DNA from: an uncultured Gammaproteobacteria bacterium
Lineage (GTDB): Bacteria; Patescibacteriota; Microgenomatia; UBA10105; UBA927
Direction of reading: 5' to 3'
DNA: 64,000 nucleotides
Assembly: GCA_964445435.1 (NCBI GenBank)
Contig: CAYUKU010000001.1
Location: forward strand, 44,384-108,383
This document shows positions 3,401-64,000 of the stretch, one piece after another (the stretch's first letter is position 1; every line of letters begins with the position of its first letter). The notes under the pieces are model-generated. The model had not been told where the DNA came from. It searched no databases and worked only from the letters and a program-made list of their open reading frames with translations. Both the position numbers and the translations under genes were made by a program.

Positions 3401-3401
3401 G

Positions 3402-3473
3402 TGGGCCCGCTTGGTGACGATCCAAGCGCCCCCATGTTATAAGCATGGTGCTCTACCGCTGAGCTACGGGCCC
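3402..3473 (-). tRNA. tRNA with anticodon UAU (tRNA-Ile, AUA-reading), 72 nt
   Basis: The reverse complement folds as a canonical cloverleaf. Acceptor GGGCCCG/CGGGCCC, D-arm GCTC-AGCGGTA-GAGC, anticodon stem CCATG/CATGG with loop CTTATAA (T33, anticodon TAT, A37), 5-nt variable loop, T-arm CTTGG-ATCGTCA-CCAAG, discriminator A, no encoded CCA. Confidence 0.75.
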
Positions 3474-53995: not shown

Positions 53996-54158
53996 ACTGT
54001 AATCTATATCACACTAAAGCAAGTAAATAAAACAGTTTTGTCCGAGAAACGGGAATTTTCCGACACATTGACTAGTGACTTACCTAGAATATCCAGAATT
54101 TACCACCAAAGAAATTAATCGATTTCTCAACTTTTAGTCAAAGCAAGATGCCAATCAT

Positions 54159-54486
54159 TATTGATTTTCATAGACTTTCTTACCGGCTTCTGTGATCAGT
54201 CCGAGTCTCAGTAATTCAGCATATCTTTTTTGTTCATCGCTGACCACTGACTGTTCTTTTTTCTGGGAGTAAACCGCACCATATAGGTTTCTTTATCAAT
54301 GCCTTTTTCCATGCTGTCTATCCAACCAAAGCACAAAGCCTCATCCAGTAGATTTTGAAAAGTGACAGTCTGCTTCCCGCTGGACTTCTTGTGTAAAGTT
54401 ACCCAAATCTCTTTTTCATTCTGGTGATACTATCGTAGCCAATGACGCCACTCGACTTGAGCTTGAGGGGAAATAGTGTTTGTCAT
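54159..54486 (-). pseudogene. YdeI/OmpD-associated-family gene remnant (at least 2 frameshifts)
   Basis: Minus-strand translation gives MTNTISPQAQVEWRHWLR* / QNEKEIWVTLHKKSSGKQTVTFQNLLDEALCFGWIDSMEKGIDKETYMVRFTPRKKNSQWSAMNKKDMLNY* / LRLGLITEAGKKVYENQ* in three different frames. No ORF of 60 aa or more in the track. Confidence 0.6.
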
Positions 54487-54543
54487 ATCATTAGTTTAAT
54501 GGGAAATTGCCCTTTTGCCTAATTTGCTTCATTCGAAAAATGG

Positions 54544-55013
54544 ATGAAAAATCTGTCAAAACTTGTTATTTCTATTGTTGGTTGTGAAGTAGTAGGAATT
54601 CTGGGGAGCGTATTTACGGTTTCCTCAATTTCCTCTTGGTACGCCACTTTAAATAAGCCCTTCTTTGCGCCACCGAACTGGATATTTGGGCCTGTTTGGA
54701 CACTCCTATATTTTCTAATGGGCGTAGCGTTTTATCTGATCTGGAAACAAGGTTGGAAGAAGAAAAAAGTTGCTACCGCCGGCAAATACTTTTTCGCACA
54801 ATTAGGGCTCAACTTTATCTGATCACCCGTTTTCTTTGGCTTACGATCGCCGCTATTGGCTCTATGTGTTATTATCGTCCTGTTGGCGCTGATCGTGATG
54901 ACAATCAAAAAATTTTATCCCCTGTCCAGATGGGCAGCCTACCTGCTTGTCCCATATCTTTTCTGGGTGAGCTTTGCTTCCGCACTGAACGCTGCCATCG
55001 CTATTCTTAATTG
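54544..55013 (+). pseudogene. tspO: TspO/MBR (tryptophan-rich sensory protein) gene interrupted by a single in-frame TGA at a conserved Trp position
   Basis: WYATLNKPFFAPPNWIFGPVWTLLY...LNFI-TGA-SPVFFGLRSP...AAYLLVPYLFWVSFASALNAAI is a full TspO in one frame. The TGA at 54820-54822 aligns with the conserved W of the LNxxWxPxFF motif. Confidence 0.65.
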
Positions 55014-55109
55014 ATCTTTGGCTCCACCTCATAGATATGTTCCGTAACCGCGTGATTGAGATAAGCATACCACTCGTCAATCTCAAAACACTGTTTGAAA
55101 CGTTTCACA

Positions 55110-55721
55110 TCACACCTGCGTTCGCTTGACCATGATGGTTGGAACACGAATAGTAAAACCACTTTCTTCCGGACTAATGTATATGGTTTCATATTTTTCC
55201 TGCAATTTCTCCCGAAGCTTTTCCAGATATACGTCTTTTTTTAGTTTTCTGCCTCCCGTCTGGTGTGCCCAAAAAAGAGCCATAGCATCGCTCCCGTCAC
55301 CTGCTTGTATCGTAAACGGCAGATGTATTTTTTGCGCGTATGCTTCTATCTCATGGATAAATGCCTGAACACTTTGGTTTTTCGCATGAAACAGTCTGTC
55401 CCTGTACATGAGTGAGAATGGATAATATCTCGTTATAAAACTCCAAAATCGGTCGTGGATAGTCATGATGACCAGAACAATTATTACCCGTATGCCTTTG
55501 TTAAAGTCCGAACGTCTTATTTCAACATTTCTTGGCACATGGACGAGCTTGTAAATATACCGAGCAAATGGTTTTGGCAAAAATAGGATAAGATATACAC
55601 CGAAAAGAAGGAGAAACAGAAAAAATAATCCTATCGTAATATGAAGTAATTCAAGGAATTTGAGAAACAGAAAAAACGCTACTACTGAACCCAAAACTAT
55701 ATACTGTGTTTTTACGCTCAT
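55110..55721 (-). CDS. membrane protein, unknown function
   Basis: Two N-terminal TM helices plus a soluble C-terminal domain. Confidence 0.4.
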   Translation of the reverse strand: MSVKTQYIVLGSVVAFFLFLKFLELLHITIGLFFLFLLLFGVYLILFLPKPFARYIYKLVHVPRNVEIRRSDFNKGIRVIIVLVIMTIHDRFWSFITRYYPFSLMYRDRLFHAKNQSVQAFIHEIEAYAQKIHLPFTIQAGDGSDAMALFWAHQTGGRKLKKDVYLEKLREKLQEKYETIYISPEESGFTIRVPTIMVKRTQV

Positions 55722-55992
55722 ACATCAGTTAACTTGTAATTCCCTTACCCGTATTTTTTTCACGTCGCCTATAATGGTGTTTTCATCATACTCCTGTGGA
55801 CGAACATTGATAATAAGACCGATATTTTCTGGCTCATGAAATAGCTCTTCTGCGTATCTAAATCTATGGCCAAATGCCGTTGAAAGAGATACGGGCTTAC
55901 CTGATTGTTAACCACCTTTAACCACCTTGGAGGTGAAATATTAGGTAGCCTATTAAGACAAAGTCAATCAGGTACTAAACCAAAGACAAAAC

Positions 55993-56148
55993 TTAAACCT
56001 TAACCTTAATAAGATCCCTAATACGACGTTCAACCACGCTCTTATACAAATATTGATACGCAGTCACTACATTTTCCATAAGTTGTTCTTTTTGTTCAGA
56101 AGTAGCCGTATCAAGATTTGTTGTAACACTAATTTTCCGTTTACTTCT
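55993..56148 (-). CDS. small ORF (about 52 aa) translationally coupled to the upstream nuclease gene
   Basis: MRSKRKISVTTNLDTATSEQKEQLMENVVTAYQYLYKSVVERRIRDLIKVKV. Its start overlaps the nuclease stop by 8 nt. Confidence 0.3.
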   Translation of the reverse strand, partial: RSKRKISVTTNLDTATSEQKEQLMENVVTAYQYLYKSVVERRIRDLIKVKV

Positions 56149-56896
56149 CATATTGCCTAACAGCACTGCGATATTTACAGAAGTCACAGTCTTCCCCTGA
56201 TTCAGGTATGCCGTCACTTTTCAAACATTCAATGGCTTTGAGAATAGTTCCCTCAACCCAATCTGTATTGCCTTTATAGGGAATGAGTTTGATATCAAAT
56301 TCCAATTTGGCGTCAAAGGCCTCTTTGTCGGTATTGCCATTGCAGTAGACGAAATAGCCAGTATCAGACACTTTGAAGCCGTTTTCTCTAAATAGCCATT
56401 GGTATATTTCCATCTGACGTTTGTATCCATCCTGCCACTCGGCATCTAGGGTTACTTCTTCATCTTTGGATGTAGCCTTGTAGTCAACCACGATATATTC
56501 TCTCGATGGCGTCACCCACATATCATCCACACCACCCGTGATAACAACGTTCGTGTTATCCACTCGGACAGTTATACCGCCCCGTAGTGAATCCCGCCAT
56601 TCGTCGATCTTTTCGTGGGCTAGTGGTATAGCGTCGATGCCGTACTTCTCCATTAATGGATGTCTGGTGCCTTTGGCCCGATGAATATCAAACTCTTTTT
56701 TCAGGAGTTTATCGACGGCAGAGTTAAGGGAAAAAGGGTATCCAGGCGGTTGGGCCACACCAAGTCTACGATCCAGATAAAAACAACGGGGACATGTAAT
56801 AAAATTGTTAATTTTTCCACGACTCAAACGAAACAACTCACTAGAGTTTGGATCGTAAATATTTCTTGTTCGGTTTGGATTGTAATACTGGCTCAT
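56141..56896 (-). CDS. Cas4/RecB-like PD-(D/E)xK nuclease with Cys cluster
   Basis: N-terminal CPRCFY and C-terminal C-x12-CDFC cysteines. Core D...VVDYKATSK (D-x-K) nuclease motif. Confidence 0.55.
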   Translation of the reverse strand: MSQYYNPNRTRNIYDPNSSELFRLSRGKINNFITCPRCFYLDRRLGVAQPPGYPFSLNSAVDKLLKKEFDIHRAKGTRHPLMEKYGIDAIPLAHEKIDEWRDSLRGGITVRVDNTNVVITGGVDDMWVTPSREYIVVDYKATSKDEEVTLDAEWQDGYKRQMEIYQWLFRENGFKVSDTGYFVYCNGNTDKEAFDAKLEFDIKLIPYKGNTDWVEGTILKAIECLKSDGIPESGEDCDFCKYRSAVRQYEK

Positions 56897-59379
56897 TGTT
56901 TGTTTACTTTATTACTTATGATTTTTTGCACCAATCGTAAATCCTCGTCGTTATAAAGCCTAAATCTCACAGATTGATACTGGTTATCTCGTACCAATAC
57001 TGAATCTGGATGTGACAACCCATTTTTTAATTGTTCTACTATTTCGGGGGTAGATGAGCCGAGTTCGCCATATACCCAATGATTTGCGTAATAGTAAAAC
57101 AACAACAATTCTTCACCCCGTTTAATACTGTGATACGAACCAGCTCCACCTTTTGAAATGTACACATCGCCGTCAGGGAACTCTTCATCAACCCACTGAG
57201 GAATAGACGTAACAGCTTTTTTGACAAATTCGTCTTTCACTCTGGCAATTGTTTCATCTTCTGTTTCTGGTGGTTTAGTTACGCTTACCTTAACCTCCTC
57301 CTCGTTATCGTCATCACCCTTTACGCCCCGCAACACCTGGGCAAACCATTCAATCGCCGCTTCCGCTTCTCGTTGCAATACAAAGTTAATTTCTTTGATG
57401 TGTTTAACCGCATTACGGAAATCTTTTAGAGTTATAAATCGTTTCTCTGTTTCGTACTTAGAGCCAAAGAATATTTCGAAGTGTTCCCAGTTTTTGAGAA
57501 TGATATTGGAATAATCCATGACGTCGCATTGACACAAACGATCATATGCATCCAGTTTCTCCTCAACAACATAGGGGTTCTTACGCAGGTATTCTGCTAG
57601 TTTTACTTTTACTTTCCCTTGAATATCTCCTGGCACTACCTGATTCCAATAATCTTTGCCAATTTTTTCGGACAATTGACTATTGATAAGTAAACGCAGT
57701 TTTAATTCAATGTCGTCTAAAGCTTTATTTGCATTTACGCCAAGGATCTGGATAATCTTTGATCCCGTTAGTCTTTCAAACTCTCGCTTGATAGCTTCTG
57801 CACGCTCTTTGATAAACAATTTATAGTTATCTTCTTTAATGGCATCACCGTAGTTGATTAAATGCGTTTCCAGTGTGTCATTAAATTCAGGATTTTCATT
57901 TTGATAATGGGCGAAATAATCGCTAGGTTTTTGATCTAATATTTCCTTATTCAATTCAGCAGGGATAAAGCAAAAGTTGGCTATTAAATTTTCCCCACCA
58001 ATCCTGTTTTTTGAGAGAAAACGCCTCGGGAAGATATGATGTTTTTCTGGACTATTAAAGCTTGAGTAGAAATGTCGATCCATTGGAATAAGTCCATTGG
58101 TTTTGAAATGCCTTGGGTTTCTACGGGCCAACATACAGAAGATAGCATTTCTAAGCGCAGATTTTGTACCAATTGTGGCAGTGGCAATCTTTTCCTCATC
58201 CGCCGTAATAGCAAAGTTTATCTTCACATCTTTGCCATTTAGGAGCTTATCGAATATTTCCCGACGATCTTCTCCCATCTTGCTTTCCATAGCTGCTGTG
58301 TATCGCTCGCTTAAAGATGATTTCCAAAACCACTCATGTACCACATCTGTCATCTCTTTACTTAATGCCCGCCCATCCGTCTTGAAATACAGATAGGCCA
58401 ATAGCGGAATGAATGACGGGTATGGAGTAAATTCAAAGATTTTAACCCCTAGATTGGCCGACAAATGCTCAACCGCCAACTCAATCGCATTAGCAATCTC
58501 ATTCCAATTCTCCTTTATTTCCTCTTTTTTTAGCTGTAATTGATATATCTTGCTACAAAACCCTTTGAGAATGAGCGAAATGGCGTGTGTAACTACTTCT
58601 GGGCTAATATCTCCAAAACCTTTCGATGCAATCCTTTCCCGCAATTGGTTGTAATTCTCCTTTAGATCAAAATCTTCACCCCATGTACTAGCTACCACCA
58701 AATCGAACAACGACAATTTCTTACCACCCTGGTTGATGCGTTCAAATATGACGCTAGCATTGTTGAGTTCGACGTTATAGACAGTTACCACACTAAGGGG
58801 GTAAGTGGTGAATATCCGATGACACTCCATGAACACTTCCTGCCGTTCGGGTGACAGTTTGCGAAACATCTGCATGTGATCTTCACCCAAGACTTTGTAT
58901 AGAGGAATATATCTATCGCTTTCCCGCTTCACCTCAAAGACTGATTGGTTGCCATTATCATCAGGCTCTTTTTTGTAGTAATCCAAGTCTAAGCAGATTT
59001 GCGAACAGTCAACCAATTTTGTTTTATTGCCATCCTTAAACTCAACCCGAACACCATGCCAGGCGGCATAGAGTGAACAAATACGTTGTTGGCCGTCTAG
59101 GATGAATTTCAATTTTTCATCCTCTCTTGGTTTAGGTGGTGTTATTCCAAGTTCAGGTAGATCCCGATAAAACAGATTGTATTTGCCCGTTGTTTCCCAA
59201 AGAAAAAAACTACCAATCGGATACTCTTTGTAAATGCTATCCAACAAGGCCACAATTTTGCTTCGTTCCCACACAAAGTCCCGTTGAAATCGGGGAACAC
59301 GAAGAGTTCCTTCTTTTAGGTAAGTAAGTAGGGAAATGATTTGTTTGTTTCCCTCTGATTCAATTTTTGGTAGCTTCAT
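56893..59379 (-). CDS. GmrSD-like DUF262 (ParB/Srx-fold, DGQQR) + DUF1524 (His-Me finger) protein with C-terminal HEPN-like and unknown domains
   Basis: N-terminus VPRFQRDFVWERSKIVALLDSIYKEYPIGSFFLWE ... ILDGQQR. Middle EKHHIFPRRFL...NLIANFCFIPAELNKEI (DUF1524). Later Rx4H motif FRNAVKHI. The final about 130 aa is aromatic-rich (LLLFYYYANHWVYGE). Confidence 0.65.
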   Translation of the reverse strand: MKLPKIESEGNKQIISLLTYLKEGTLRVPRFQRDFVWERSKIVALLDSIYKEYPIGSFFLWETTGKYNLFYRDLPELGITPPKPREDEKLKFILDGQQRICSLYAAWHGVRVEFKDGNKTKLVDCSQICLDLDYYKKEPDDNGNQSVFEVKRESDRYIPLYKVLGEDHMQMFRKLSPERQEVFMECHRIFTTYPLSVVTVYNVELNNASVIFERINQGGKKLSLFDLVVASTWGEDFDLKENYNQLRERIASKGFGDISPEVVTHAISLILKGFCSKIYQLQLKKEEIKENWNEIANAIELAVEHLSANLGVKIFEFTPYPSFIPLLAYLYFKTDGRALSKEMTDVVHEWFWKSSLSERYTAAMESKMGEDRREIFDKLLNGKDVKINFAITADEEKIATATIGTKSALRNAIFCMLARRNPRHFKTNGLIPMDRHFYSSFNSPEKHHIFPRRFLSKNRIGGENLIANFCFIPAELNKEILDQKPSDYFAHYQNENPEFNDTLETHLINYGDAIKEDNYKLFIKERAEAIKREFERLTGSKIIQILGVNANKALDDIELKLRLLINSQLSEKIGKDYWNQVVPGDIQGKVKVKLAEYLRKNPYVVEEKLDAYDRLCQCDVMDYSNIILKNWEHFEIFFGSKYETEKRFITLKDFRNAVKHIKEINFVLQREAEAAIEWFAQVLRGVKGDDDNEEEVKVSVTKPPETEDETIARVKDEFVKKAVTSIPQWVDEEFPDGDVYISKGGAGSYHSIKRGEELLLFYYYANHWVYGELGSSTPEIVEQLKNGLSHPDSVLVRDNQYQSVRFRLYNDEDLRLVQKIISNKVNKQ

Positions 59380-59382
59380 AAT

Positions 59383-62300
59383 TTATTTTTCTCCCGTCCA
59401 ATCTTTTGCTAATAACTCCGCCTGTTCCAATACAATCTTGGTAGCTCCATCCTGTTTGTCTGGCGGGTAGTTATATTTCTTGAGCAACCGCTTGATATAA
59501 ACCCGTAATTTAGCTTGAATGCTTTCCTTGATCGTCCAGTCGATAGTGGTATTTTTACGGAGCATATCCACCAGCTCCCGAGCCATTGCCTTAAGGGTTT
59601 CATCACCTAGTTCTCTAATTGCGCTTTCGTTATTAGAGAGTGCGTCATAAAATGCCACTTCTTCCTCGGTTAATCCCATGCCCTTGCCTTTGTCTTTTTC
59701 GTCTTTGATCTTCTTGGCTAGTTCTAGAAGTTCTGCGATTACCTGCGCCGCTTCAATCGTCCTGTTCTGGTACTTACGAATTGTTTCCGCGAGCATTGAG
59801 GCAAATGAACGAGATTTAACCAGATTTGTTCTGGCAAAAGTTCGGAGTTCATCGTTTAAGAGTCTTTTCAGAAGTTCCAAAGCTACGTTTTTGTGCTTCA
59901 TATTTTTCACTTCTTCCAAAAACTCCTCGGAAAATATCGAAATGTCAGGAGTCTTGATCCCAGCTGCAGAATAGATATCTATCACCGCGTCCGATGTCAC
60001 CGCCGAAGATACTATCTGTTTAATCGCTACGTCATACTCTTCATCAGTTGGCCCTCCGGAACGTGCTTCCATTTTCAGAATCGCGCCCCGTACAATCTGG
60101 AAAAATCCTACTTCATCTCTAATCTCAATTGCTTTCTCATGGGGAACGGCTAGTGAAAATGCCTTCGATAATTCTGATACCGCCGCAAGATACCGTTTTT
60201 TGCCATCAGGAAGCCCCAAGATAAAATCAGTTGCGCCAGAAATTGTTTGCGTGCGTAAAGAGGCAGCAGAGCTAAAGTAGTTTTGGTAGCCAAACCCGTG
60301 ATACATTCCCCGAACCACTTCGTATTTTTCGAGCATTACCGATACCGCCTCGTCTTGAGGAATAGCTGTTTCCTGTCTATCGGATTCCGAATAATAAGAT
60401 AGAGCCTCCTTTAATTCAGGCGCAATGCCGATGTAGTCAACGATAAGTCCGCCTTGTTTGTCCTTATAGACACGATTGACGCGAGCAATAGCTTGCATCA
60501 AACCATGCCCCTGCATGGGTTTGTCTATGTACATCGTATGCAAGGACGGCACGTCAAAACCCGTCAGCCACATATCCCGCACAATAACTAGTTTCAGGGA
60601 ATCGTCGGGATCTTTCATTCGTCTAGCCATTTCATCTAATGCATGTTTGGCCCGAATGTGGGGTTGATACTCCTCTGGATCAGCCGCCGATCCTGTCATC
60701 ACAACTTTCAAAAATCCTTTGTTGTCATCTCCCTCATGCCAGTTTGGCCGAAGTTTTATGATTGCGTTGTATAGTTCCACCGCAATCCTACGGCTCATCG
60801 CCACGATCATGCCTTTGCCATCAATGGCAGAGAGTCTATTTTCAAAATGATCCACCACGTCACGGGCAATAAGAGCAATGCGTTTTTCCGATCCCACCAT
60901 TGCCTCGAGCCTTGCCCACTTACTCTTCAATTTTTCCTTGCGCTCAACTTCTTCACCCTCGGTTAGTTCTTCAAATTCGGGATCAATCTTGGGCTGTTCT
61001 TCTTTCTTTAGTTCAATACGGGCTAGTCTGGCCTCGTAGTAGATCGGTACTGTGGCATGATCTTCAACCGCACGGGTAACATCGTATACATCGACATATT
61101 CACCAAATACCGCCCGTGTGTTTCGATCTGTCAGCTCGACAGGAGTGCCAGTAAAACCGATAAAGGAGGCATTGGGGAGAGCAGAGCGCATGTGTTTGGC
61201 AAAGCCATGAATAAATTCATACTGGCTCCGATGGGCTTCGTCGGCAATAACCACAATGTTTTTTCGATCAGACAGCATCGGATATTCCGTGTGTCCATTT
61301 TGAGGTAAGAATTTTTGAATAGTCGTAAATATCACCCCACCCGATGCCACCCGTAACAACTCTTGTAACTCTTCTCGGTTCTCTGCCTGTTTAGGAGTTT
61401 GCCGTAAGAGTTCATGACAACGAGAAAAGATGCCAAACAGTTGGTTGTCCAAGTCGTTGCGATCGGTTAAGACGACGAGAGTCGGGTTGTTGAGAGTTTG
61501 GATGATTTTACCCGCATAAAACGTCATGGTTAGGCTCTTTCCCGATCCTTGCGTATGCCAAACTACACCCGCTCGTCTGTCTCCCTCTTCCTGTGTCGCC
61601 TTAATCGTGCTTTCAATGGCCTTATTGGTAGCAAAATATTGGTGATACGCTGCCGCTTTTTTGATAGTATGCTCGCCATCGGTTTCAAAAACAATGAAGT
61701 TGGCGAGTAAGTCCAAGAGTCGGGTTTTATCAAAAATACCTTTTAAGAGTACCTCTAGCTGGGGTAGTGCATTGGAGGCTAGCTCTTTCCCATCTACAGT
61801 TCGCCAACGGGTAAACCATTCCAGGTTGGCCGAAAGCGTCCCCATGCGGGCCTCAATTCCGTCACTAATGATGGAAAGTTCGTTATAGGCAAACAGAGTG
61901 GGAATATCCCGTTTGTAGGTTTGGATTTGGTTAAAGGCATTTTTAACTGTGGCTTTTTCATCTCCTGGGTTTTTTAGTTCGATAACAACTACAGGTAACC
62001 CATTCACAAACACCACCACATCGGGCCGACGATTCACATTGTTTTCAATAATGGTGTATTGGTTAACAGCCAAAAAGTCGTTATTTGCAACGTCGCCAAA
62101 GTACACCAATCGTACTTTATCACCAGCTACAGTTCCATCAGAGCGCATATATTCCACATCCACACCATCCCGCAGATAGGAATGAAAGATTTTGTTATTG
62201 ATGATCAGATTCGGGGTAGTGTGGGCCACCTGCACCACTTTCTTAAACGCCTCTTCTTTAGCATCTTGGGGAATATTGGGATTTAGTTTTTCAATAGCCG

Positions 62301-62463
62301 TAAGCAATCTGTCCTCAAGTACCACGTCGCCATAACTAGCCCGTTCGGGATGTTCGCCATCGGGAGGTGGGGCAATCTCTGGGCCACCAATAACCGAATA
62401 ACCCAACCCCTCGAGCCATTCAAGTGTTGCTAGTTCTAGATCTGTTTCTGTGTATTTAGTCAT
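59383..62463 (-). CDS. hsdR: type I restriction enzyme R subunit
   Basis: 1026 aa. N-terminal nuclease domain. SF2 helicase motifs [24 protein letters not shown] and QAIARVNR. Confidence 0.9.
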
Positions 62464-62468
62464 ATTTA

Positions 62469-63623
62469 TTAAAATGATATTTTGTCATCATCCAATTCCA
62501 CTTCAAAGGAAGTTACAACTTTTGTATCGGCAGGTTGTACCTCTTCTGTAGAATTGTTAACGATAAATTTTGCCCTTTCAAATAATTCATCAAATGTAAT
62601 AATTTCAGGGTTAGATAAATTTCTCCTGTATAACTCAAAAGTCTTTTTCTTAGAATTGGAGTCCAACTGATTACAATGGCCGATTACCAATAATCCTTTT
62701 GGGCTGCATGTGGTAATACCGCCTAATTCTTCTCTGTTTTCGTCTGTTCTTGAACCCTCAGTTTCCCATTTATTTGCGTTAACTTGGAGCTGTGATACAC
62801 CACCAACTAATTCTTTTCCAATCTCCCATGCTCCATTTCTATATTCATCATTCCCGAGTAATGCAGTACTTGGTTTTTTGATTTCTACTAATACTGTAAA
62901 TCTGCCATCAGCGGCTGTATCCATCAGATAATCTCCACGTTGATTTCCTGAACCAAATACATTGCCTCCACCGTACTGAGGCTGGGATGTTATCAAATGA
63001 AGATATTGGTATTTCAACCCTAATCCGAAAATCCACTCATTGTTCTTGAAGAAATTTTGCCAATAGGCCTCGTCCTTATCTTCTGTTAATGAATTTTCAA
63101 ATTCTCTTAAGGCTGTTCCCCGTTCAGTTTGCACCCGAGAATATGCAAGCCGTGTGGCCAAGTGTGGCTCCTTTTGTACTAACTGTTCCCAAACCTCATT
63201 TCCGTAATCCTGCTCCAATAACTTGGTAACGAAACTCTTTCTCTTTTCATCAACCCTGATAATTTCGTCCTCCTTGGCCACGACATAGCTCTGTTCTAAC
63301 CAGGGTAATTCTTGCTTTGAAATGCGATATAGATTTACGAGTGCTTCAAACAAATTTTTTAATGCCAAGCTTTTAAGCTCAAATTTAATTCCCTCGTCTT
63401 TTTTTAATTCGTTGAGTTTTACCGAAGATAAATCTTGCCATTCATCATGCGCCCCTTTTCTTTGCACGATAATATACCCCTTAAGTGTGGCCTTAGGATC
63501 TTTCGGGTTGTCTTTAATGACAACTCCTCGAAAGACTTTTCTAAAGGTACCGCTTTCTTCAATAACAACATCGTCTGTTTTTGCAACATTGCTCGACACT
63601 CTGGTTAATTGATATTGCTGCAT
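62469..63623 (-). CDS. PD-(D/E)xK nuclease, Shedu/DUF4263-like, inserted between hsdS and hsdR
   Basis: GDYLMD...[10 protein letters not shown] (D231/D235 ... E247-x-K249). C-terminal [11 protein letters not shown]. No Walker motif, so not PrrC. Confidence 0.4.
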
Positions 63624-63624
63624 A

Positions 63625-64000
63625 CTAATTTTTCACTCTTAATTTCCCACTCATTAATCTTGGTAATAGAGAATCTCGCAGTGCGCCCAATTGTTCGTTC
63701 TCATCCATTTTTGCATTGATTTCTTGATATATGGCTCCGCATATCTGATTAAATCGATCTAGAATATCCTTACTCGGTGACAATACTGACATTTGTTTTA
63801 GATGTGTTGGCCCAAAATTTGCTTGCACACTACCTGCTGATAATCGTATTTGTTCACTTAAAAATTCTTCAGATTGTAAATACTGATACATAAAGGGATA
63901 ACTTACATTATCTTGGGGCCTAAATCGAATAACGCTCGTATTAAGTAAAAGTGGTAGATGTGATTTGCGCACAATTGCATTTTTACCTAAAGTTCCCGAT
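63625..64000 (-). CDS. hsdS: type I restriction enzyme S subunit (C-terminal part; gene continues beyond window end)
   Basis: C-terminal conserved helix EQLGALRDSLLPRLMSGKLRV typical of HsdS. The ORF is open at the window edge. Confidence 0.75.
   Translation of the reverse strand, partial: SGTLGKNAIVRKSHLPLLLNTSVIRFRPQDNVSYPFMYQYLQSEEFLSEQIRLSAGSVQANFGPTHLKQMSVLSPSKDILDRFNQICGAIYQEINAKMDENEQLGALRDSLLPRLMSGKLRVKN

What the first reader, a model, noticed from the sequence alone, without database searches (positions are those of the whole stretch)
62469..63623. PD-(D/E)xK nuclease occupying the PrrC slot between hsdS and hsdR
In the classical prr locus the anticodon nuclease PrrC sits between hsdS and hsdR and is held latent by the R-M complex. 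Here that position holds a 384-aa protein with no ATPase motifs. It has a D-x3-D...E-x-K nuclease core (GDYLMD...VLVEIKKP) and a C-terminal ITFDELF tail reminiscent of Shedu SduA (DUF4263). This suggests a different R-M-embedded abortive or immune effector.
Basis: partly seen in the sequence, partly recalled or inferred. Interest (0 to 1): 0.75.

Follow-up and report, generated by a model that had tools for sequence, protein, structure and literature searches.

The report
Shedu nuclease inside type I restriction operon
The gene between hsdS and hsdR encodes a clear member of the known Shedu (SduA) family of anti-phage DNA nucleases, an arrangement already reported in the literature, so the finding is real but ordinary.

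Summary
The ORF 62469..63623 (-), 384 aa, is real and lies between a cut hsdS and a full hsdR. It is not merely reminiscent of Shedu. It is a full-length Type 1A Shedu nuclease:
- Pfam SduA_N plus SduA_C.
- PADLOC SduA, E 8e-78.
- B. cereus SduA structure 8TI8, E 4e-35.

All five catalytic-motif residues are present (E185, D231, E247, K249, Q278), as is the sensor-domain arginine R28.

Gu et al. (bioRxiv 2023) already counted 602 of 5,499 Shedu genes inside restriction-modification systems, type I included.

New here:
- In this clade about half of the relatives sit in hsd operons, always directly after hsdS.
- These operons belong to several type I families.
- Other defence cargo is often inserted before hsdR.

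Roughly half of the relatives are not next to hsd genes, and characterised Shedu proteins work alone. I therefore read the gene as an autonomous second-layer nuclease co-transcribed with the R-M system, not a PrrC-like guard.

One unreported feature: 56% of close homologues end in an SSB-tip-like tail (D-D-[LIV]-P-F). The window's own tail (DDDKISF) is a degenerate version.

The parts
62469..63623 (-). sduA: 384-aa Type 1A Shedu immune nuclease (stop codon 62469-62471)
63309..63596 (-). N-terminal sensor domain (aa 10-105), SduA_N, sPC4/Whirly-like; invariant R28
63078..63308 (-). helical linker domain (aa 106-182)
   Evidence: AF2 helices 126-180. It aligns with the linker of 8TI8.
62553..63077 (-). 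DUF4263 / SduA_C PD-(D/E)xK nuclease domain (aa 183-357). Motif I E185, motif II D231, motif III E247 and K249, motif IV Q278.
   Evidence: Pfam PF14082, 102 bits. The residues align with B. cereus E204, D249, E264, K266 and Q295 (numbering from Gu et al.). They are invariant or nearly so in A1/A2 and were verified in the translation.
62472..62552 (-). disordered acidic C-terminal tail (aa 358-384) ending ELDDDKISF, a degenerate SSB-tip-like motif
   Evidence: pLDDT below 50 for aa 360-384. 67 of 120 closest homologues end [DE]-D-D-[LIV]-P-F. The same ISF ending is found in an independent assembly, L093.
63625..64000 (-). 3' part of hsdS (specificity subunit), cut by the window end; its stop lies 1 nt before the sduA ATG
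   Evidence: Open frame to the window end. NCBIfam S-subunit profile E 5.6e-8. tblastn hits to HsdS C-termini of L003, L005 and L009.
59383..62463 (-). hsdR (1026 aa), starting 5 nt after the sduA stop
   Evidence: Pfam HSDR_N, SWI2_SNF2, T1R_D3-like and T1RH-like_C. PADLOC REase_I, 1155 bits. TIGR00348. 85% identical to the HsdR of L003.
56893..59379 (-). 828-aa DUF262 (GmrSD_N) protein with a HEPN-like middle region, starting 3 nt after the hsdR stop; further defence cargo in the same operon
   Evidence: Pfam GmrSD_N E 8e-29; weak HEPN_Swt1. PADLOC PDC-M55C E 1.7e-46, HEC-05 E 3.7e-41, PDC-M34B E 1.5e-11 at aa 554-665.
56141..56896 (-). 251-aa Cas4-like PD-(D/E)xK nuclease (PDDEXK_1), overlapping the previous gene by 4 nt; last gene of the co-directional cluster
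   Evidence: Pfam PDDEXK_1 E 1.7e-11. Cas4 profiles. 62% identical to the gene at the same position in L003.

Best explanation
The ORF encodes a Type 1A Shedu (SduA) anti-phage nuclease carried as embedded cargo in a type I restriction-modification operon: (hsdM)-hsdS-sduA-hsdR-DUF262/HEPN-Cas4-like.

Shown here:
- Family membership.
- An intact PD-(D/E)xK active site.
- An intact N-terminal sPC4/Whirly-like sensor domain.
- Near-zero intergenic gaps of 1, 5 and 3 nt and a 4-nt overlap, which imply co-transcription.
- A recurrent hsdS-sduA junction in relatives.

Inferred from B. cereus SduA (29% identical over the full length):
- The protein forms an autoinhibited homotetramer.
- The DUF4263 domains then nick and cut DNA.

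I consider it most likely an autonomous second layer of defence. It is co-expressed and co-transferred with the R-M system and can act on phages that evade restriction. Embedding gives genetic linkage and perhaps complementary coverage, not PrrC-like control by the R-M complex.
For: Identity:
- Pfam SduA_N plus SduA_C.
- PADLOC SduA E 8e-78, full length.
- PDB 8TI8 E 4.4e-35.

Active site and sensor:
- E185, D231, E247, K249, Q278 and R28 are conserved.
- They map onto residues shown to be essential (Gu et al.; Loeff et al.).

Operon: gene spacing and no convincing internal terminators or promoters.

Autonomy:
- B. cereus and E. coli SduA protect as single genes, and the N-terminal domain restrains toxicity.
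- 18 of 33 non-redundant full-length relatives with enough flank have no hsd gene nearby.
- In some loci sduA follows hsdR instead (L031, L082).
- Unrelated defence cargo sits between sduA and hsdR: Abi_C in L009, SLATT plus SMODS in L011, and a 277-aa unknown protein in L005.

Precedent:
- 602 of 5,499 Shedu genes lie in R-M systems.
- Embedding in type I R-M is a general phenomenon (Payne et al.; TgvAB).
Against: - No experiment exists for this protein or its close relatives.
- Embedding in this clade (15 of 33; 7 of 13 with long flanks) is several-fold above the 11% reported for all Shedu.
- The hsdS-sduA junction is always tight (40 nt or less).
- The association spans R-M systems whose HsdR is only 27-41% identical to the window's.
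- These last three points hint at selection for the arrangement, possibly a functional link.
- The B. cereus octamer-interface tyrosines (Y312, Y315) and loop lysines (K238, K241) are not conserved at the aligned positions (E295, E298, G220, F223). The activation details may therefore differ.
Confidence: 0.75

Rival explanations
1. PrrC-like guard. SduA is held latent by physical association with the HsdMS(R) complex. It is unleashed when a phage anti-restriction protein (Ocr-, Stp- or ArdA-like) disables the R-M enzyme, acting as a back-up or abortive effector.
For: - It sits in the same hsdS-hsdR slot as prrC.
- The 1-nt gap to hsdS suggests translational coupling.
- About half of the clade is hsd-embedded, and sduA is always immediately after hsdS.
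- The association recurs across divergent type I families.
Against: - PrrC is almost exclusively embedded (Payne et al.), whereas about half of these SduA relatives are not.
- Characterised SduA proteins are self-regulated by their own N-terminal domain and work as single genes.
- That domain and its essential Arg are retained here.
- No extra domain or ATPase module could serve as an R-M interface.
- E. coli SduA is non-abortive.
Confidence: 0.1
2. Sequential synergy. HsdR cleavage of unmodified phage DNA produces free DNA ends or ssDNA. The Shedu sensor domain recognises these, so Shedu amplifies destruction of DNA first cut by the R-M enzyme. No physical complex is needed.
For: - E. coli SduA senses free dsDNA ends and nicks at a fixed distance (Loeff et al.).
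- Gu et al. propose that the Type 1A N-domain binds the single-stranded ends of injected DNA, and that Shedu may complement R-M.
- The clade is enriched in type I operons.
Against: - This rests purely on inference.
- Standalone relatives are equally common.
- Host RecBCD-type enzymes already process such ends.
- Nothing in the sequence distinguishes embedded from standalone proteins in the analyses run here.
Confidence: 0.13
3. Decayed or inactive passenger. The gene is a remnant with no nuclease function.
For: The C-terminal tail deviates from the clade consensus, with K at -4 and S at -2.
Against: - The reading frame is full length.
- All catalytic and sensor residues are intact.
- The sequence is identical in an independent assembly.
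- There are 80-91% identical orthologues in the same arrangement.
Confidence: 0.02

Closest known systems
Bacillus cereus B4264 Shedu / SduA (Type 1A; PDB 8TI8, 8TI9)
   Same: - Same three-part architecture over the full length: SduA_N sensor, helical linker, DUF4263 nuclease.
- Same motif I-IV residues and the same N-domain arginine.
- Best sequence and fold match.
   Different: - Only about 29% identical.
- The octamer-interface tyrosines and motif II loop lysines are not conserved at the aligned positions.
- The window protein has an extra 27-aa acidic tail that B. cereus SduA lacks.
- The window gene is inside a type I R-M operon.
Escherichia coli SduA (PDB 8PS4, 8PS5), DNA-end-sensing Shedu
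   Different: A different N-terminal clamp domain (Type 1B-like) and only 16-19% identity. End-sensing was shown for that N-domain, not for the Type 1A domain.
PrrC / EcoprrI (prr locus)
   Same: The gene position between hsdS and hsdR of a type I R-M operon, and co-transcription with it.
   Different: - PrrC is an ABC-ATPase-fused tRNA(Lys) anticodon nuclease kept latent by EcoprrI and triggered by T4 Stp.
- The window protein is a DNA nuclease of an unrelated fold, without an ATPase and with its own sensor domain.
- Its family is not restricted to R-M loci.
Other type I R-M-embedded defences (TgvAB of V. cholerae VPI-2; RloF; Payne et al. 'guilt by embedding')
   Same: An independent defence gene inserted within an hsd operon. 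TgvAB works without HsdR activity.
   Different: A different protein family: GmrSD-like rather than Shedu. The window operon also carries a GmrSD_N-type protein downstream of hsdR.
NucS / EndoMS
   Different: No sequence-level match, a different N-terminal domain, and a mismatch-repair function. The window protein is not a member.

Membership tests
Shedu (SduA, DUF4263) | DUF4263 / SduA_C domain above the curated threshold | tested here: met
   PF14082 at 102 bits against a cut-off of 27, aa 183-347. 17 PADLOC SduA models match, best E 8e-78.
Shedu (SduA, DUF4263) | PD-(D/E)xK motifs I-IV (B. cereus E204, D249, E264, K266, Q295) | tested here: met
   E185, D231, E247, K249 and Q278 align to these residues and are invariant or at least 90% conserved in 46 and 70 homologues.
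Shedu (SduA, DUF4263) | Fold matches solved SduA structures | tested here: met
Shedu Type 1A (Gu et al.) | N-terminal sPC4/Whirly-like domain with a conserved Arg (B. cereus R29) | tested here: met
Shedu Type 1A (Gu et al.) | Octamer-interface Tyr (Y312, Y315) and motif II loop Lys (K238, K241) used for activation in B. cereus | tested here: not met
   The aligned residues are E295, E298, G220 and F223. The loop does keep R229, and the clade consensus has Lys nearby. The alignment in these loops is uncertain, and the oligomeric state was not testable.
Shedu (SduA, DUF4263) | Confers phage resistance as a single gene; nuclease-dependent | not testable with these tools
   Needs cloning and phage assays.
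PrrC-type R-M guard | Gene located between hsdS and hsdR | tested here: met
PrrC-type R-M guard | ABC-ATPase domain fused to an anticodon nuclease domain | tested here: not met
   No ATPase, PrrC or RloC model matches in Pfam, PADLOC or NCBIfam.
PrrC-type R-M guard | Family almost exclusively embedded in type I R-M | tested here: not met
   15 of 33 relatives (7 of 13 with 4 kb or more on both flanks) have hsd genes nearby. This is a lower bound, because tblastn used few queries.
PrrC-type R-M guard | Latency through binding the R-M complex; activation by an anti-restriction factor | not testable with these tools
   Needs biochemistry and genetics.
SSB C-terminal tip (SSB-Ct) motif | Extreme C-terminus D-D-D-[IL]-P-F after a disordered linker | tested here: inconclusive
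   The clade consensus is [DE]-D-D-[LIV]-P-F in 67 of 120 homologues, with Pro at -2 in 67 of 67. The window has DDDKISF: the terminal Phe and three Asp are kept, but Lys is at -4 and Ser replaces the Pro, the same change as ssb-113, which weakens partner binding (PMC10164576). The tail is disordered in AF2 models.
SSB C-terminal tip (SSB-Ct) motif | Binds SSB-interacting proteins or an ssDNA-binding surface | not testable with these tools
   Only monomer AF2 was available. The tail did not dock (pLDDT about 36) in either model.

The most novel reading that the evidence does not exclude
A large subclade of Type 1A Shedu nucleases carries a mimic of the SSB C-terminal tip: an acidic disordered linker ending D-D-[LIV]-P-F-COOH. 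This tail could act in one of two ways:
- as a built-in ssDNA mimic that plugs the protein's own sPC4/Whirly ssDNA-sensing domain until real ssDNA displaces it;
- as a handle that docks Shedu onto host or phage SSB-interacting replication and recombination proteins, placing the nuclease at phage replication intermediates.

I found no mention of this in the two Shedu structure preprints or in full-text searches.

The tail occurs only with the Type 1A-like N-domain in my sample: 32 of 53 such proteins, against 0 of 14 with other N-domains that have enough flanking sequence. The window protein carries a degenerate version (DDDKISF), so the claim rests mainly on its relatives.
Probability: 0.3. 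Interest if true: 0.6.

Novelty: new member of a known kind. Interest (0 to 1): 0.25.

Why it matters
For the finding as stated, very little. It adds one more Shedu gene embedded in a type I R-M operon, which is a published pattern.

Three modest points go beyond the literature I could read.

1. **Higher embedding rate.** In this Type 1A clade, embedding reaches roughly one half rather than about one in ten. The junction is fixed (directly after hsdS) and spans several type I families. This makes the clade a good test case for asking whether 'embedding' reflects function or only linkage.

2. **Stacked nucleases.** The window operon stacks four nuclease-type defence genes in one transcription unit: HsdR, SduA, DUF262/HEPN and a Cas4-like protein.

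3. **SSB-tip-like tail.** If the tail on many relatives is functional, it would give a concrete, testable handle on how Type 1A Shedu senses infection. That question is still open.

Tried and rejected
- **Exact-sequence look-up** of the window SduA found nothing.
- **The genome-contig scan** gave only two loci, so neighbourhoods came from the look-up of encoding contigs and one metagenome scan.
- **Dedicated partner hypothesis.** I tested whether the Cas4-like PDDEXK_1 gene is a dedicated partner of Shedu.
  - For: it follows sduA directly in L076 (78% identity) and lies near it in L074 and L003.
  - Against: the family is huge and highly conserved (8,000 hits), and it also sits next to a UvrD helicase in a LexA-flanked island without Shedu or hsd.
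  - Rejected as a specific partner.
- **Tail versus R-M embedding.** The 2x2 counts were 11, 4, 7 and 11. The loci are few and related and some were picked as the query's closest relatives, so I did not test for significance and draw no conclusion.
- **AF2 monomer models** of the window protein and of P0083 (canonical SDDDIPF tail) both left the tail undocked and disordered. This is uninformative, because the biological unit is a tetramer.
- **The promoter and terminator scan** of 54.5-64 kb found fewer promoter-like sites than the shuffled controls and no convincing minus-strand terminator inside the operon.
- **The published Mol Cell version** of Gu et al. (PMC11805627) is not held, so I could only check the preprint for any mention of the tail.

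Full report
**Observation**

The ORF is exactly as described: 62469..63623 on the minus strand, ATG start, 384 codons.
- Directly upstream (1 nt), an open frame that runs off the window end terminates. It matches the C-terminal part of R-M specificity subunits.
- Directly downstream (5 nt), a 1026-aa HsdR begins.
- The cluster continues on the same strand with a DUF262/GmrSD_N protein of 828 aa (3-nt gap) and a Cas4-like PDDEXK_1 protein of 251 aa (4-nt overlap).
- The region 54-64 kb has about 40% G+C, against about 48% in the rest of the window. The rest carries ordinary chromosomal genes: BipA, penicillin-binding proteins and ribonucleotide reductase. This fits an acquired defence island.

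**What the protein is**

Every line of evidence gives the same answer.
- Pfam finds SduA_N (aa 10-105, E 5.6e-19) and SduA_C/DUF4263 (aa 183-347, E 4.8e-29).
- PADLOC's SduA model PDLC00394 matches end to end (E 8e-78).
- The only PDB sequences matched are B. cereus SduA: 8TI8 (E 4.4e-35, aa 10-355) and its nuclease-domain construct.

Using the residue numbering of Gu et al., B. cereus motifs I-IV (E204, D249, E264/K266, Q295) align to E185, D231, E247/K249 and Q278.
- These are invariant or nearly so in alignments of 46 and 70 homologues.
- R28 is also invariant. It aligns with B. cereus R29, the N-domain arginine whose mutation abolishes immunity.

The protein is therefore a Type 1A Shedu in the Gu et al. 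classification.

Two B. cereus-specific activation features are not conserved at the aligned positions:
- octamer-interface Y312 and Y315;
- loop K238 and K241.

The octamer mechanism cannot simply be transferred.

**Is the arrangement new?**

No. [quoted passage not shown] Embedding of independent defence genes in type I operons is a described general phenomenon (Payne et al.; TgvAB; PrrC).

**What I could add**

- The three closest relatives (91, 80 and 64% identity) have the same arrangement: sduA follows hsdS in the two whose upstream flank is present (the third contig begins at sduA), and hsdR lies downstream in all three, directly or after one extra gene in the 91% relative. L003 is an orthologous operon, with HsdR 85% and PDDEXK 62% identical.
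- I clustered 92 fetched loci at 90% identity.
  - 15 of 33 full-length relatives with at least 1.3 kb of upstream flank have hsd genes in the locus.
  - 7 of 13 with at least 4 kb on both sides have them.
  - The dominant order is hsdM-hsdS-sduA-hsdR.
- sduA always starts within 40 nt of the hsdS stop. The sduA-hsdR gap varies from 5 nt to 3.4 kb and holds other cargo: Abi_C, SLATT plus SMODS, and unknown proteins.
- Relatives with SduA 46-49% identical sit in systems whose HsdR is only 27-41% identical to the window's. The association therefore spans several type I families.
- Three clusters have sduA after hsdR.

**Mechanism**

- The tight spacing and the lack of convincing internal signals indicate one transcript.
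- I favour autonomous action for four reasons:
  - the self-regulating N-domain is intact;
  - B. cereus and E. coli SduA work as single genes, and their N-domains restrain toxicity;
  - about half of the relatives are standalone;
  - the slot also accepts unrelated cargo.
- The guard model (PrrC-like) and the sequential-synergy model (Shedu sensing ends made by HsdR) remain possible. They are the interesting alternatives, and neither can be decided computationally here.

**Side finding: an SSB-tip-like tail**

After the nuclease core (which ends about aa 357), the protein has a 27-aa acidic tail that is disordered in the model.
- Among the 120 closest homologues, 67 end in [DE]-D-D-[LIV]-P-F, with Pro at -2 in all 67.
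- This is the consensus of the SSB C-terminal tip (E. coli MDFDDDIPF; PMC10164576).
- In my loci the tail occurs in 32 of 53 Type 1A-like proteins and in none of the 14 with other N-domains that have enough flanking sequence.
- It shows no clear link with hsd embedding.
- The window's own tail, DDDKISF, keeps the terminal Phe and three Asp. It has Lys at -4 and Ser instead of Pro, the ssb-113 change that weakens SSB-partner binding.
- The same sequence appears in an independent assembly.
- I found no mention of this tail in the Shedu preprints or in full-text searches.
- Its function is speculative: either a plug for the ssDNA-binding N-domain or a handle for SSB-interacting proteins.

**Verdict**

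The Shedu guess is right, and in fact understated. The claim of a different, PrrC-like effector is not supported. This is a new member of a known family in a known arrangement, and interest is low, apart from the clade-level embedding pattern and the unreported tail.

Noticed in passing
window 62472-62552 (-); homologues P0001-P0120; loci L013-L063: 56% of the closest SduA homologues end in an SSB-C-terminal-tip-like motif, [DE]-D-D-[LIV]-P-F, after a variable acidic linker. The window has the degenerate DDDKISF. I did not find this in the Shedu literature I could search.
   Followed up: partly
window 56141-56896 (-); L003 14601-15359; L076 8603-9358; L074 2866-3621; L094 7001-7756: The 251-aa Cas4-like PDDEXK_1 protein, with Cys pairs near both ends, belongs to a very large and unusually conserved family: 8,000 hits, with the top 120 all at least 78% identical. 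It recurs at the 3' end of Shedu-containing R-M clusters, directly after a different-N-domain SduA in L076. It also sits next to a UvrD helicase in a LexA-flanked island. Its function is unknown, and it looks like a mobile defence-island cassette.
   Followed up: partly
window 56893-59379 (-): An 828-aa DUF262 (GmrSD_N) protein lacks the usual DUF1524 HNH domain. It has a HEPN-like middle region (PADLOC PDC-M34B E 1.5e-11; Pfam HEPN_Swt1 weak) and about 160 further C-terminal residues. It matches the candidate families PDC-M55C and HEC-05. In the orthologous operon L003 this slot holds a 125-aa CpXC protein instead.
   Followed up: no
L007 1254-4661: The HsdR downstream of a 64%-identical SduA is 1135 aa long and carries a GIY-YIG domain inserted within its HSDR_N region. 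This may be a homing-endonuclease-type insertion.
   Followed up: no
L003 7642-8722; L009 4290-6778; L010 1032-6669: In related operons, further genes without Pfam matches sit between hsdM and hsdS: 189 and 168 aa in L003, and a 1276-aa protein in L010. L009 has a Fic-family gene there. Both junctions of these type I operons therefore accumulate cargo.
   Followed up: no
window 3401-3473 (-): ARAGORN calls a tRNA-Ile with anticodon TAT (UAU). From my own knowledge this is uncommon in bacteria, which normally read AUA with a lysidine-modified CAU tRNA.
   Followed up: no
window 54544-55010 (+): A TspO/MBR-like ORF of only 92 aa is overlapped by a second ORF in another frame, at the edge of the low-GC island. 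It may be a frameshifted or truncated gene marking the island boundary. The same 92-aa ORF is called TspO_MBR in L093.
   Followed up: no
window 54000-64000: G+C drops to 0.39-0.42 in four of the five 2-kb bins across the defence cluster (0.46 in the 60-62 kb bin inside hsdR), against 0.45-0.51 elsewhere in the window. This fits horizontal acquisition.
   Followed up: no
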